NCBI GenBank assembly: GCA_013265495.1 | Contig: MU058221.1 | Coordinates: 372,001 to 436,000 of the forward strand | Length of the DNA: 64,000 bases | Direction: 5' to 3' | Source: Vicugna vicugna | Taxonomy: Eukaryota | In this document: positions 13,950-57,700 of the stretch, piece by piece | Numbering within the stretch: position 1 is the first letter of the stretch | How the letters are laid out: each line of letters starts with the position of its first letter | Program-made: the position numbers and the translations under genes | The notes under the pieces: model-generated | What the model was told of the DNA's origin: nothing | The model's input: the letters and a program-made list of their open reading frames with translations, nothing else | Databases searched by the model: none

Positions 13950-14830
13950 TGAGAGGCCCGGAATGGCGGGGCAGCCGTCGTCTCTGCTGTTGCCGGCTGT
14001 CTTGCCAGAGCTGAGCCCAAAGCCTTCAGTAAGAGCCTGGAACTGAAGGCAGCTAGGAGGCAGAAGCACAAAGCAGCGGCTCTGCGTGCGGGTGGCGCTC
14101 TCGGAGCGAACAGCGTGCCCGCCTTTCTCCTCGGGGCACAGCTCAGAGCGCCCCCGTCCGGCCGGATGCCTGAGGGTCTGCGGAAGCCCGGCGCAGCGCC
14201 GTCGCCTGGAGCCCGGCCGCGTCCCCGGCGAGCCGAGCAGCTCAGAGCCGGCGGCCCGGAGCGGCCGCGCTGCGCAGCCGGCGCGGGGACTCACAGCGGG
14301 CAGGCGCCTGCGGAGCTGCGAGCCCGTCTCGGGGCGGGGCTTCGCGACGACACAGGGAGCAAGCCGGGAGCAGAAGGCGATGCCCGTCCGCAGCAGTCCC
14401 TGGGAGGCTCCCTCCCGACTCTGGCGAGTCTGTCCGGCCTCGTGGGGCCGTCCGGGCGTCGGGAGGCTCATCCGCCCGCGACCTGCTCTGTCTGACGGAC
14501 GCGCCCGGCGCCAGCAGGGACTTCGGGGGCGCCGGCCACTGCCCTGAGAGCAACGTCCCGTGACCCCCTTCCTGGGGGACGACTCGGAATCCAAGCAGGA
14601 CTGTAGGTTCCAGCCGCCAGAGTGAGGAAGCAGCAGCAGGGGAGCCAGGAGCGCCGGCCCGGACAGGCGGCCTGCGCTGGGGGCGGGCCTGCTCGCAGGG
14701 GCTTGCTGATTGCTCTAAACGCAGGCGGCCAGCAGGAAGCCGAGAGCCAGTCCGCCTGAGCGTCGCCGTTGCACTGTTTCTCCTTCAGCCTTACGCGCCC
14801 GCGCCTTGTTTGTCGTAGATTCACCATGTG
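13950..14830. promoter_or_regulatory. Orphan CpG island / GC peak
   Basis: Abrupt, very GC- and CpG-rich block of about 0.9 kb in AT-rich flanks; GC box ggggcggggc at 14331-14340; no recognisable coding exon. Confidence 0.75.
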
Positions 14831-31999: not shown

Positions 32000-32928
32000 A
32001 CCACAAAATAATATATTTATTTTTTCCAACATGTTTTCTTTTATTGATTAAAAACTACACAAGAGCTAACTGGTAATTTAGAAAGCAATGTTACACATCA
32101 TCTTGTGTTTAGAAATTTGCCATCTTGGTGGTTTCGCTCATTGACCACATGGCCATTGCTCCCCCTGCACCCCCAGTCCAGTGAGAATATTGCTGACGGT
32201 CTTCCCATTTGGAAGTCTTCAAAGACTGCTGGTAGGCTAAAAAACCAAAGCTCACACTGTGTACACTGTGCCTTGAAGGATCATTCCCCAGATTTGATTC
32301 GATTTTTCATTCCAATAGTTTTTTTTTTTTTTTTCAAACTTTGTGGTCAACTTTGTTTCTTTGCCGTCAGTGGTAAAGCAAATTTTCTTTTGGTACAACA
32401 TAGGCTCGGACGCCCATGCTTAGAATTGGAAACGGAATCACTTGACCAGGAAAAAATAAAGTAAAATAAAACAACAAGAACAAATGATATTTCTAAAAGA
32501 AAAATGAAACGGAAGCAATTGAAATAAAGGCTGTGAGCTACACGCACGTCACAAGGAAAGCTGCGCGGTTCCCCAGCGTCCCACCCACCCCTGGTGTGAC
32601 GCCCCCGCCCCGCCCGCGGCGGTTCTCCAGCCCAGGAACCATGCAGGGTAGAAAAAAGCCAGATACACAAGGAGCCTATATGCAGCCAGGGCGGGATCTA
32701 TTTTTCCTAAGAACCGGACGCTCGTACTATGTACATCCGGGAGTACTTCCGTTGGTTTGTTTGTTCGATGTCTTAAAGCAGAGCGAGTGGCGCAGCTCCC
32801 CGGCCCCGCGGGCGCGCGCGGCCTCTGCGCGCAGCTGGGTTCCTGCCGGCCGGCCGCGCCCGCCGGCGCCCCGCGTCCTTGGCTCCGAGGCCGCCCTGCC
32901 GCGTCGAGACCCCGGGGCGGCCCCGCTG
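32000..32928 (-). other. LRRTM4: LRRTM4 3' UTR (long isoform), approximate
   Basis: Stretch free of recognisable repeats between the TAG stop and the tandem polyA signals. Confidence 0.65.
32016..32045 (-). terminator. LRRTM4: Tandem AATAAA polyadenylation signals of LRRTM4 long isoform
   Basis: TTTATT on + at 32016-32021 and 32040-32045; GU-rich ttttgtggttggt downstream on the minus strand (about 31995-32008); about 0.9 kb past the stop codon. Confidence 0.6.
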
Positions 32929-33260
32929 CTAGTTCGTTATCCTCTCCAGGTAGAGGGCCGGCGCCGCCGACCTGGCGATGGTGGCGATGAAGCCGCGGTC
33001 GTGCCCGAGCTCCAGGCCGGGGGCCTCGTCGCGCTCCGGGCGCACGGCCCCGCGGCCCCCGCCGACCCGGAGCGGCTGGTGAGCCGGGCAGTACCCGAGC
33101 GCCGGCTGCTCGAAGCCGTAGTGCGGCGGGGGCCTCACGTGGCGCAGCATCTGGTGGGAGAGAGAAAGGCGGGCTGTGAAAACGCTCTGGGTGAGAGGAG
33201 CGCGCGCACGGGCGCGCGGCTTGCTCCCCTTCCGGAGTCATCAGCTGCCGATCCAGCTGC
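32540..33260. other. CpG island / GC peak over the LRRTM4 last exon and proximal 3' UTR
   Basis: Abrupt, extremely GC- and CpG-rich block with AT-rich sequence on both sides. Confidence 0.85.
32929..33150 (-). CDS. LRRTM4: Terminal coding exon of leucine-rich repeat transmembrane neuronal protein 4, long isoform (last 73 aa of the cytoplasmic tail)
   Basis: Acceptor ctttctctctcccaccag|ATG (phase 0). The peptide [27 protein letters not shown]...[30 protein letters not shown] aligns without gaps to the human LRRTM4 long C-terminus as I recall it ([27 protein letters not shown]...[30 protein letters not shown]). The ATG is internal, not a start codon. Confidence 0.93.
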   Translation of the reverse strand: [73 protein letters not shown]

Positions 33261-34137
33261 TAGAGAGCAGTTACCGAGATAAGGACGACTAGTATTTAAC
33301 TCGGCGTTGTTTTGTCCATTCATACACAAAGGATTTATACTCACTTTGCATATAAAATGATACATAAAGGGTTTTCAGTGCCTGCTCTATTACCCGGCCC
33401 TCCGTCATTTATTACCTGTCACCAGGGAGGAAGTTAGACACAACCTACTTCCCATCAACAGGGAATTTTAAAATGTATTATGTACTCGTGCATTTGAGTG
33501 CAGATAATACCAAGATTGGGGAGTATTAACCTGTGTAATATGACAAGATACTACATTAAGTGAAAAAAATTAAGGCATAAAGAATGTATAGTATGATCCA
33601 TTTTGTGAGAATAAAACTGTAAACATAGATTTTTTTTTACTTTTAAAATGTCTTTATATACAATTGAAGTCTTTATTAGGGTATATAACTTTCATTTAAT
33701 TTTTTTTTGAGTGACAGTTTCTCGATTATTTCCAACAACCCTGTAATTTCTGGATAAGAGCACCCTGAAATCATGGAAGTGGGCACATCTTTGTATTTAT
33801 GGTGTGTAATACTATAGATTTTAAGCTAAGAAGCTAAAACGTGTCTTAATGTTCAAATAATAGATCTGAATAATGATCTACAGAAAGCTTATTAATGGGA
33901 AAAGCTGAAAATGTTTAAACTATAGTAATTTTGATTCTTTGTGCAGCTTTTTATTAAACCACACATTCCTGATAAAGAAAAATATGTCTCAAAGTTAGAA
34001 AAAGGAAAATAATGATTGCTTAACTCTTGATCCCACACTAGAGCTTTCTCATGCCCCCCTAGATCCAAACTGACACTCTCAGTAAGTCCACAGATGAGGA
34101 ATTTCAAAGGCTTCACCATCCTGTGAGGTTAGAGGCT

Positions 34138-54350: not shown

Positions 54351-54469
54351 AAGACGGCTATAAAATATGACAAACACGTTTCCTCCTGTTAATTTGTGTG
54401 TTCTTTTTTCCTGGGGTAAGTGTGTATTATTTTTAAAATATCCGCCTTTACTGTCTGCTAAGGTAGACT

Positions 54470-54710
54470 CCGGGCGGGAGACACAGCAGGGCAGCGCGCC
54501 GAGCGGGCCGAGGGAGAGCCGCGCAGGGGCGCCGGCAGGGGAGCGCGGCGGCGGCCCCGGGGGAGGGGGGGGCCGGGTGGCAGCGCGCGTGCGCGGCGCG
54601 CTTCGACTGCAAAGTGCAACGGCGAGCGTTCCAGACCCGGAGGCGGGTGTGAGCGCGCCTATGGTGAAGTAACCCGTAACGGAGGTGCTTGGTGCTGTCT
54701 GCGTCGTTCA
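54470..54710. other. Short, sharp GC/CpG peak
   Basis: About 240 bp of mostly G/C with dense CpG inside very AT-rich flanks. Confidence 0.85.
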
Positions 54711-57700
54711 GTCAGGACAAAAGGAGAGCTGGAGGGTTGGCAAAATGTGTGAATTTTAAAAAGCGTTAGTTACTCCGTGCATTTTCTGACTTTATTGTGA
54801 CGGTGAGAAAATGCGAATAATTATTTTTGGAAGTTAATTCCCGAATACACAGTTCATGACATATTCGTATTTATCTAATTGAATGTCCAGACCTGACTAG
54901 ATGTGTCACAGAAAAAGATGCATAGGCCCCACTGGTTATAACATCCGCTATGATGTTATTCAGGTAAATAACTTACACCGCGTCAACTTGTGCATCATAA
55001 TCCTACAGAGACGGAAAACATGTGGAAAACATATGTCAGATCGTGAGAAAGCTTTAATATATACGGTCAGATGAGAAATGGAAACAAAAAATTATTACAC
55101 TCCCATTAAAATAAATCTAACGCACAAGCTTAAATGCTTTGTTTTTCACTGGGTGATGAGACTAAGCTGTTTGTGCTGTTTTCCTGTAACCAAATAATAT
55201 GAATAAATGTTATAGTTTTAAAATGAGATATTCTGTGTAATGTCATTTATTTAAATTGTGATTATTATTGGGCACCAGCGATTTTGAAATGACAAGTGTA
55301 ATGTTCTCTTTATTTCATGCATGAAGAGCTTCCCACAGTCTTATTAATACCATGATTCCACATCTGTATAGCTTTTCAAAATGCCAGTAACTGTGTTGGC
55401 CAGTGATTTTGTCAAGACTGGATTTCTTCCCACGTGATTTTTTTATTAACTCATTTTAACAAAAATAAAATACTAAGGCAGTTAAGTAAATGTGCCTTAA
55501 AGAAAACTGTTTGCTCAGCCCAGCGTGTAGTGCAATGCCTTAATTGTGAAATCAGTGAGTCTGCACACAACTAATTTAGTTCAAGCAGAAGTTCACAGTA
55601 ACTGAGTGGCGGATTGCGCTCTGAGAGGCACCGCGATTTGGGACTTTGTCACTGTGTTCTAGTCTCGCTTAATTCCCTAGAGGCAGTCTTTTCTAGTTAT
55701 TTACAATCTGACTATATCAACATTAAACTCTTGCTGCTGTCAAAAATAAACTACGGAGTTGTCACTCCTCTGAAGATACCTTGCTATATGCATTCTCAAA
55801 AAAGGAAGTATTAAACAACAAATTGAAAATTCTGATCTTGTGTCTACATCAGCATCTGTATTTTGAATGGTTTGCGTAAAATTTAGGAATGAGAACCTTT
55901 TAAATAATCAAATTGCAGTATTTGTAACGTGAAGAATCTTTTCTCAAATGTCCAGCTACAGTTTTCCTTCTGAAGTTAAGTGCATGGAACAAGTGGTCTG
56001 ATGAAATTAACAATTAGGAGGATTAAGCAAAATACAGCACTAATTTATTATGATGTTCTGTATAATAGCAATAGTATATATTTTTTAAATGGCTCACGGA
56101 AACTTCTAATAAGGCCATATTTCATGAGAATGAATTTGGTGGGAAAAATAAATAGTTTCTATCATATTTTAGAAGTGGGTTATCACTAACCACTTTTCGT
56201 ATGGTAATCCTGGAAGAAGTCTCTTTTATTTAATTTAGAGTGTGCTTCCAGTGTTTATATTTTCTACCAATAATTTAATTTGAACATATATTAGTTGTGG
56301 TCTTTTTCATAAGAAGTTGTAAGTAGAGCAGATCATTATGTGGTTATATAGTAAGATATAAAGTAAGAAAACACTTTTTTTATCCTTCTCATATTTAAAT
56401 AGTTGAGATGTTGCCAATGCCTGGTGGAAAATAAAATTGATTTGGGTATACAAAAAGCTTAACAAATTTATATTTAAACAGATAGCATGGCTTCCCATCA
56501 TGTTCTTAATTTTATAATGATGGTTATTAAAAGACAAAGACCATGCAGATAGCATCTACAGAGTTAGATGAGAAAGGAAAGTCTATTCCTGTTGGTCAAC
56601 CAGAAACAAAACGAGCCCAGGGTAGGAATATCTGCCACGAAAGTCAGTCAGCGACAGTGCACTTGCCTGGCTACTGGGCAGTGAGCACGTTGGCTGCGCG
56701 ATACCTACCTGCTCCTACATTTTGATAGTTTGTGAGTCCAGGAAACACAAGCTGTGCGAGTGTCTTGGCAAGCTACGTCTTCAGCCCTCACCTCAAATTC
56801 AGCTGCGTCTGGGAAACCTGCCGTAGCTGACTGGAAAAGAGGGACAAATTCTATCCTATTCACAGAGCAGTAAAGACAGTTTCTGGCCTGTCTTCCCCAT
56901 GAGACGCGAACCATGAAGAATAAGCCACACTTAAAACCGCTTTTTCCAAGGGATTGATTTTACTTAGATTCTAAGTTTGAAAGTGACATAGACTGTATTG
57001 ACTGAGAATATTTATAACATATGGGAAATAAAATCAAGAAAAATTGAATTATAAATGAGTAAATTGTCTGAGTTCCCCAAATTTCTTAATTTTGTTTAGC
57101 AGACTTTGTACTATATTTAAATGTCTGTCATAGGTTTCATTGCCATAATACTCTAAAAATAAAAATTAATTACAATTAAATTTAATGGAGATTTGGAATA
57201 GTTGTCATGTAGCTCCTTTAATCCTTGAAGGAGTTGTCTGATTCAATTGTCCTTCACCTCTTCTCCATTTTATCCTACAAAAGGAGCAAAATAACAGGAG
57301 ATGCACGAGCAGAGAGGTAATTTAGTTTTAAAAATATTTAGGGTAGGTACAGATGAATTCAGACAGCTTCTCCCATTTGATTCCTGCTCTGCAAGTGGAC
57401 CCCTTTCAACTTCTTTGTCTTACATCAACAGGCTGTAAGATTCAGCAAAGGAACACATCATTTTCTTGGCTGACAAACTAAAAATAGTTCGCAGAGGAAA
57501 CAGGGTTTTTGCGTTGCTTCTCTTGCAGTTATTTTTATTTTTCTTCCCTTCAAAGTGAAGTCACTCCAGTCAGCAAGTCCTGACACTCTGATTGGCTGAC
57601 CACTGTGAAAGCTTGTTGGGGAGCAAATTTAAATGCCACCTCTTCTCTGTTTCCTTCCATGGCCAGGTACCTTGGGAAGCCCCCAAAGGCACATCAAAGG

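What the first reader, a model, noticed from the sequence alone, without database searches (positions are those of the whole stretch)
32929..33150. LRRTM4 long-isoform tail exon shows extreme GC-driven accelerated evolution (candidate gBGC hotspot overriding purifying selection)
Seen: 71 of 73 codons end in G/C (only GCT and ATA do not), and the GC peak spills into the intron and UTR in an otherwise AT-rich locus. Against the human sequence as recalled from memory (same length), I count 26 differences. Of these, 17 are to Gly/Ala/Arg/Pro (GC-rich codons; e.g. TKGYET>GGGRGA, H>R, Q>P), and three Tyr are lost. The last 20 aa ([17 protein letters not shown].N) are almost untouched. Known: GC-biased gene conversion at recombination hotspots fixes AT>GC changes at synonymous, non-synonymous and non-coding sites alike and can mimic positive selection. 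Inference: a long-lived hotspot has remodelled the cytoplasmic tail of this synaptic organiser in this lineage, and the terminal motif is the truly constrained part.
Basis: partly seen in the sequence, partly recalled or inferred. Interest (0 to 1): 0.78.

Follow-up and report, generated by a model that had tools for sequence, protein, structure and literature searches.

The report
GC-rewritten LRRTM4 tail exon
In this even-toed hoofed mammal (probably a camelid), the last exon of the synapse gene LRRTM4 and the intron beside it have been rewritten almost only from A/T to G/C, changing about a third of a normally conserved protein tail; the likely cause is recombination-linked biased gene conversion, a known process, and the same exon shows a milder shift in a pangolin, a wild dog and a bird.

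Summary
Observation confirmed: the single-copy last exon of long-isoform LRRTM4 has G/C at 71 of 73 third positions. Of these, 20 codons need at least one A/T>G/C step, none needs the reverse, and 9 of 33 amniote-invariant residues changed. The adjacent intron, read through relatives' in-frame proteins, shows 20 W>S against 0 S>W, so protein selection is not the driver. The last 20 codons are spared (1 of 21 sites against 22 of 52). Best reading: long-lasting GC-biased gene conversion (0.85), probably at a CpG-island hotspot independent of PRDM9, whose exons look open here. Relaxed constraint on codons 1-53 is not excluded. Added here: pangolin, Lycaon and an antbird show parallel GC-ward changes in this exon, sharing residues with the window. 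Recombination, methylation, polymorphism, expression and other camelids could not be tested. The scan has noted similar GC peaks elsewhere in this genome. A strong new example of a known process.

The parts
32929..33150 (-). Last coding exon of long-isoform LRRTM4 (73 codons + TAG), cytoplasmic tail; GC3 71 of 73
32992..33150 (-). Codons 1-53: 22 of the 23 lineage-specific amino-acid changes; 22 of 52 non-synonymous A/T sites at codon positions 1-2 now G/C
32932..32991 (-). Codons 54-73: constrained terminal motif; GC3 19 of 20 but only 1 of 21 non-synonymous A/T sites converted (I66L)
   Evidence: also 0-1 changes there in pangolin, Lycaon and antbird
33151..33235 (-). 3' end of the intron with acceptor; 20 W>S, 0 S>W, 1 S>S at 51 informative sites against P0096
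32801..32928 (-). Start of the 3' UTR, GC 0.86-0.88, CpG-dense; no orthologous DNA was available, so direction of change not shown
32726..33250 (.). Core of the GC/CpG peak (200-bp windows with GC at least 0.7 and CpG o/e at least 0.9); wider 32530-33300 has GC 0.68, CpG o/e 1.03
32016..32045 (-). Two AATAAA hexamers, candidate polyadenylation signals (use not shown)

Best explanation
This is the orthologous, still coding last exon of long-isoform LRRTM4, lying under a roughly 0.5-0.8 kb tract where meiotic recombination has recurred for a long time. Mismatch repair in heteroduplex DNA favours G/C alleles, so A/T>G/C mutations were fixed at synonymous, intronic and weakly to moderately constrained coding sites alike, while the strongly constrained last 20 residues resisted. 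Shown: orthology, single copy, acceleration, W>S direction in exon and intron, sparing of the terminal motif. Inferred: that the cause is gene conversion (0.85); that the hotspot is of the stable, unmethylated CpG-island type that needs no PRDM9 (about 0.65); that changes at formerly invariant residues were mildly harmful and fixed against selection and not after relaxation (about 0.65).
For: 23 changes in 73 codons against 20 in 516 for the gene's large exon (P=7e-12). 23 certain W>S steps (14 A>G, 4 T>C, 4 A>C, 1 T>G), 1 W>W, 0 S>W; 8 of the 23 are outside present CpGs. Intron: 20:0 against P0096, 11:0 against P0112, 13:0 against P0026, 25:6 within 140 nt but 10:4 beyond it against P0117. 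Conversion of A/T sites is alike in intron (20 of 39) and codons 1-53 (22 of 52; P=0.41) and far lower in codons 54-73 (1 of 21). A repeat copy under another peak of the window shows 56-79 W>S against 2-12 S>W in 5 pairwise comparisons. CpG o/e about 1. Parallel GC-ward excess in Lycaon (canids lack PRDM9; PMC11161765), pangolin and antbird. Magnitude: about 0.7 W>S per A/T site after correction, against 0.17 uncorrected further out; human PRDM9 hotspots last about 1 Myr at B of 9-15 (PMC4510005), too short for this (inference).
Against: No recombination, methylation, polymorphism or RNA data, and no DNA of any relative. The intron test rests on back-translated unnamed proteins, sees only determined codon positions, uses my own alignment and is unpolarised; the hippo-like-tail record P0117 gives 6 reverse differences near the exon. 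The ancestral GC3 of the exon is unknown and may already have been high. The large exon is W>S biased too (17:1), so part of the bias is gene- or lineage-wide. PRDM9 exons appear open in this genome, so repeated PRDM9-directed hotspots are possible. Pangolin and Lycaon were picked after ranking, are classed at amino-acid level with unknown codons, and the lineages are not independent.
Confidence: 0.8

Rival explanations
1. Gene conversion sets the direction, but codons 1-53 had also lost their constraint in this lineage (for instance the long isoform is little used or only its end matters), so nothing was overridden.
For: Non-synonymous A/T sites of codons 1-53 were converted about as often as intronic ones (22 of 52 against 20 of 39); 9 of 33 amniote-invariant residues changed; Y13, D14, I18, K31, E34 and S53, identical between LRRTM3 and cat LRRTM4 tails, are changed.
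Against: Frame, length (73), stop position and acceptor are kept while the neighbouring intron has a 3-nt gap. GC-neutral replacements, which conversion does not push, number 1 certain (Y13F) and up to about 5, against 0-2 in other artiodactyls, a test of low power. Y20, C21, H24 are kept; C21 corresponds by count to human C538, named in a macular degeneration report (reference title in PMC13100631). Strong conversion alone predicts near-neutral fixation of mildly harmful G/C alleles (established theory).
Confidence: 0.25
2. The bias came from a succession of PRDM9-directed hotspots attracted to increasingly GC-rich DNA, not from one stable default hotspot.
For: The genome holds a PRDM9 locus with open KRAB, SSXRD and SET exons and a zinc-finger exon.
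Against: Narrow peak, CpG o/e near 1, parallel shift in PRDM9-lacking canids and a bird; the excess needs many hotspot lifetimes at one spot (inference). The zinc-finger array is interrupted by N, so no motif could be predicted.
Confidence: 0.15
3. No fixation bias: the tract became unmethylated or was selected as a CpG-island regulatory element, and GC rose through spared CpG decay or selection on DNA.
For: 15 of 23 certain W>S changes now sit in CpG; CpG o/e about 1.
Against: Loss of methylation lowers S>W but does not raise W>S; half the intronic A/T sites changed. Eight W>S changes lie outside CpG and 5 are transversions. The same one-way change hits a repeat copy in the window.
Confidence: 0.07
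4. Positive selection remodelled the tail for a lineage-specific synaptic function.
For: [quoted passage not shown]
Against: Direction is dictated by base, not by residue chemistry; silent sites and intron are equally affected. Each recurring residue is a G/C-ward or GC-compatible step.
Confidence: 0.03

Closest known systems
gBGC-accelerated exons (Berglund, Pollard and Webster 2009, PMC2631073; abstract and headings seen)
   Same: Single fast exon, clustered W>S changes, bias in flanking non-coding DNA, excess amino-acid replacement mimicking positive selection.
   Different: Here a third of the residues changed and third positions are saturated, which points to a much longer episode than the human-branch cases; recombination and polymorphism were not measured here.
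PRDM9-independent ('default') hotspots in placental mammals (Joseph et al. 2024, PMC11161765; abstract, passages, part 3 of 8, Dataset S3 seen)
   Same: Narrow GC peak on CpG-rich DNA, stable over long times, coexisting with an intact PRDM9, strongest in canids.
   Different: That study has no camelid or pangolin among its trios and defines loci by mouse or dog maps; this site is a terminal coding exon more than 0.5 Mb from the gene's 5' part, and its methylation is unknown.
Episodic gBGC in coding exons with later compensation (Riffis et al. 2025, PMC12290510, listing only; bioRxiv 10.64898/2026.10.02.756222, abstract and introduction)
   Same: Exon- and lineage-specific bursts of non-synonymous A/T>G/C change; the preprint reports thousands of such episodes in five taxa.
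   Different: No S>W replacement that could mark compensation is seen here; camelids are not among the five taxa named.
LRRTM4 long isoform of other amniotes
   Same: Same exon length, position, terminal motif; large exon 94% identical to peccary.
   Different: Tail only 67% identical to peccary; three tyrosines and six other invariant or near-invariant residues replaced.

Membership tests
LRRTM4 long-isoform terminal exon (orthologue) | Best hits are LRRTM4 tails; single copy; downstream of the LRRTM4 large exon on the same strand | tested here: met
LRRTM4 long-isoform terminal exon (orthologue) | Spliced and expressed | not testable with these tools
   Acceptor and frame intact; no sequencing run was listed
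gBGC-accelerated exon | [quoted passage not shown] | tested here: met
   22 against 1-14 changes in 28 placentals; 23 of 73 against 20 of 516
gBGC-accelerated exon | W>S excess among substitutions, transitions and transversions, also outside CpG | tested here: met
   23 W>S, 0 S>W; 5 transversions; 8 outside CpG; non-synonymous sites only
gBGC-accelerated exon | Same bias in flanking non-coding DNA | tested here: met
   Intron 20:0 against P0096, 25:6 against P0117; indirect, unpolarised; UTR not tested
gBGC-accelerated exon | W>S alleles at higher population frequency than S>W | not testable with these tools
   No reads available
gBGC-accelerated exon | Elevated recombination rate | not testable with these tools
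   No map or DSB data
PRDM9-independent (default) hotspot | Germline-hypomethylated CpG-rich DNA | tested here: inconclusive
   Sequence proxy only: CpG o/e 1.03 over 771 bp, GC 0.68
PRDM9-independent (default) hotspot | Activity at the orthologous site in PRDM9-lacking species | tested here: inconclusive
   Lycaon 9 changes in 72 (7 GC-up, 0 down) against 1 in 516 in its large exon; antbird 14 (7 up, 0 down), but other birds 0-3; protein level only
PRDM9-independent (default) hotspot | Breaks form without PRDM9 binding | not testable with these tools
   PRDM9 exons open, zinc-finger array broken by N
Positively selected exon | Acceleration restricted to amino-acid-changing sites and independent of base class | tested here: not met

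The most novel reading that the evidence does not exclude
The LRRTM4 terminal exon is an ancient default recombination hotspot, far from any promoter of the gene, that is used whenever a lineage leans on PRDM9-independent recombination. It has rewritten the same protein tail in camelids, pangolins, canids and a passerine, with identical non-adaptive residues (R28, A43, G45, R52, G53, L18, E14). Camelids would be an unrecognised extreme of this mode despite an intact PRDM9, with three such peaks in this 64 kb alone.
Probability: 0.35. Interest if true: 0.65.

Novelty: new member of a known kind. Interest (0 to 1): 0.42.

Why it matters
The process is known, and the scan has met it repeatedly in this genome, so the case alone is not surprising to a specialist. 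It is useful in three ways. It warns that LRRTM4 would score as positively selected or convergent in camelid, pangolin and canid scans for non-adaptive reasons. It acts as a natural mutagenesis of a tail with no Pfam family and no solved structure: four lineages spare the last 20 residues, and Y20, C21, H24 also survive here, marking the likely binding surfaces. And it points to camelids and pangolins, absent from the 52-species survey, as test cases for default hotspots coexisting with PRDM9.

Tried and rejected
Diverged duplicate: rejected. Wrong strand or chance ORF: plus-strand reading and three overlapping long ORFs are GC by-products; none of the 3 looked up is in the protein collection. 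Camelid orthologues of the tail: none returned by three word searches and one HMMER search; only 15 of 223 and 15 of 742 members of the two large clusters were listed, so they may be there. PRDM9 loss as explanation: not supported, exons open. Tandem repeats: none at the exon. Structure or family for the tail: none significant; no fold was run, as a short probably disordered tail would not bear on the question. G19 was counted as ancestral; if it is a reversal it would be a 24th change. Rows left out: blue whale and duck tails (truncated or mispredicted), short isoforms, and monotreme, turtle and frog tails (indels) from the invariance count.

Full report
What is there. Window 33150-32929 on the minus strand encodes 73 residues and a stop behind a pyrimidine tract and CAG acceptor. 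Its best database hits are LRRTM4 of peccary, muntjac and shrew at 64-67% identity. The genome (2.03 Gb) holds one copy. A conserved panda tail finds only this exon and a weak match 162 kb behind the LRRTM3 large exon. The LRRTM4 large exon lies 588 kb upstream on the same contig and strand, 94% identical to peccary. So this is the orthologous last exon of the long isoform. A protein tree places the genome among artiodactyls, outside ruminants plus whales, with moderate support. Earlier notes of the scan call it a New World camelid (not checked further).

The observation. GC3 is 71 of 73, exon GC 0.76, CpG o/e 1.07. Controls in the same genome are 339 of 516 for the gene's large exon and 30 of 69 for the LRRTM3 tail exon. 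The peak core spans 32726-33250 and includes UTR and intron. Five of these are not this lineage's, and two of its own are hidden by parallel change in apes. Against an artiodactyl ancestor inferred from 28 placental tails the count is 23.

Rate and direction. The 23 of 73 compare with 20 of 516 in the large exon (P=7e-12). The 28 placentals differ from consensus at 1-14 of 72 sites. Using the window's real codons and shortest paths, 20 codons need at least one W>S step, two are W>S or S>S (I1M, D14E), one is W>W (Y13F) and none needs S>W. The certain steps are 14 A>G, 4 T>C, 4 A>C, 1 T>G and 1 A>T; 8 of the 23 W>S lie outside present CpGs. Distinct changes in 26 other placentals run 11 up and 20 down. 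Nine of 33 residues invariant in 37 amniote tails are changed.

Non-coding DNA. No relative's DNA could be had (one search listed no run). However, several gene-caller products of other artiodactyls read in frame from the intron into the exon, which exposes the determined letters of the orthologous intron. Over the last 84 nt the window differs from P0096 (whale-like tail) by 20 W>S, 0 S>W and 1 S>S at 51 informative sites. It gives 11:0 against P0112 and 13:0 against P0026 (ruminant-like). Against the longer P0117 it gives 25:6 within 140 nt and 10:4 beyond (P=0.18). These five records overlap and are not independent, the alignment is my own, and direction is not polarised by an outgroup. A second GC peak in the window falls in a dispersed repeat; against 5 of its 32 other listed copies it shows 56-79 W>S and 2-12 S>W, while the most skewed of 10 pairs among those copies reaches about 3:1.

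Constraint. Of A/T sites at codon positions 1-2 whose transition changes the residue, 22 of 52 were converted in codons 1-53 and 1 of 21 in codons 54-73 (P=0.002), although GC3 there is 19 of 20 and the UTR behind is 0.86 GC. The intron's 20 of 39 cannot be told from codons 1-53 (P=0.41). The end of the tail is thus under strong purifying selection, and the exon is probably still used. Whether codons 1-53 were overridden or relaxed stays open. GC-neutral replacements are not clearly raised (1 certain, up to about 5), but the test is weak. C21, which by count is human C538 of a macular degeneration report (reference title only), is kept. What the terminal motif binds is unknown to me: no Pfam family or solved structure matches, and keyword passages of three LRRTM4 papers did not address it.

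Other lineages. After the window, the most changed placental tails are pangolin (14; 9 up, 1 down) and Lycaon (9; 7 up, 0 down; 1 change in 516 in its large exon). An antbird has 14 changes from the sauropsid consensus (7 up, 0 down) and an unnamed sauropsid-type tail 9 (5 up, 0 down), while seven other sauropsid tails have 0-4. All spare the last 20 residues (0-1 changes). Residues shared with the window are E14, R28, A43, G45, R52 (pangolin), R28, A43, G53 (Lycaon) and E14, L18, G53 (antbird). E14, R28 and G45 also occur in further placentals, so they are easy changes. A frameshifted unnamed record with a pangolin-like tail shows G/C at 27 of 30 letters that correspond to third positions; no ancestral baseline exists for that figure. 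These lineages were chosen after ranking and classed without codons, so their P values (0.003-0.004) are indicative only.

Mechanism. GC-biased gene conversion explains rate, direction, the spill into non-coding DNA and the sparing of the most constrained sites (established; PMC2631073 abstract; PMC4510005). The corrected excess is about 0.7 W>S per A/T site near the exon against 0.17 uncorrected further out, roughly fourfold, and more if the outer part lies in the skirt of the peak. Human hotspots reach B of 9-15 in the top 0.3% and are under about 1.3 Myr old. One such hotspot on a branch of some 55 Myr (recalled) would raise the mean rate by about a third, so many millions of years of activity are needed (inference). 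That, the CpG o/e near 1 and the parallel shift in PRDM9-lacking canids and a bird favour a stable default hotspot. PRDM9 has open KRAB, SSXRD and SET exons here and a zinc-finger exon interrupted by N. Coexistence of both hotspot kinds is reported as common in mammals (PMC11161765). Against a purely local story, the large exon is also biased (17 W>S, 2 S>S, 1 S>W).

What is known. No paper in the library holds both 'LRRTM4' and 'GC-biased gene conversion'. Searches combining camel, alpaca or camelid with gBGC terms gave nothing on camelids among those listed (15 of 57 listed; 10 of 40 for pangolin and convergence). Camelids and pangolins are absent from the main text hits, the four supplements searched and the trio list of PMC11161765, and camelids from the main text of PMC10691551. 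Subscription journals are largely missing from the library. The bioRxiv supplements of the 2026 Riffis preprint are closed and the supplements of PMC2631073 and PMC12290510 were not searched; they could list this exon for other taxa. The scan's own notes describe similar peaks at RYR2, LYST, TBCE, ARID4B and several repeats in this genome (8 of 70 shown; unchecked), and none at this locus or its look-alikes.

Verdict. The recurrence of the shift at this exon in unrelated lineages is the part worth following. Interest 0.42.

Noticed in passing
window 14051-14790: Second GC/CpG peak (GC 0.73, CpG o/e 0.89), partly inside a dispersed repeat with 32 other listed copies; pairwise against 5 copies 56-79 W>S and 2-12 S>W. 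Repeat family not identified.
   Followed up: partly
window 54426-54725: Third GC/CpG peak (GC 0.72, CpG o/e 1.09) with sharp edges in AT-rich, unique DNA inside the LRRTM4 intron. The three peaks lie about 19 and 21 kb apart.
   Followed up: partly
L002:1501-3056 (LRRTM4 large exon): 17 of 20 lineage-specific amino-acid changes are W>S, clustered in the signal peptide, the stalk and the exon end.
   Followed up: partly
L016-L018 (G000:C4951:23343-36386): PRDM9 locus with open KRAB, SSXRD and SET exons; zinc-finger array interrupted by N. Not every exon was checked.
   Followed up: partly
L004:1501-3012: The LRRTM1-like exon on the same contig has GC3 0.94, against 0.54 and 0.50 for the two other paralogues; not compared with other mammals.
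   Followed up: no
window 33174-33178: A/T>G/C change in the intron appears to have made an extra AG 23 nt upstream of the acceptor, out of frame; use unknown.
   Followed up: no
P0030, P0108 (unnamed records): Both carry the pangolin-like tail from residue 12 on but a different start, suggesting a rearranged or differently read exon start in those records.
   Followed up: no
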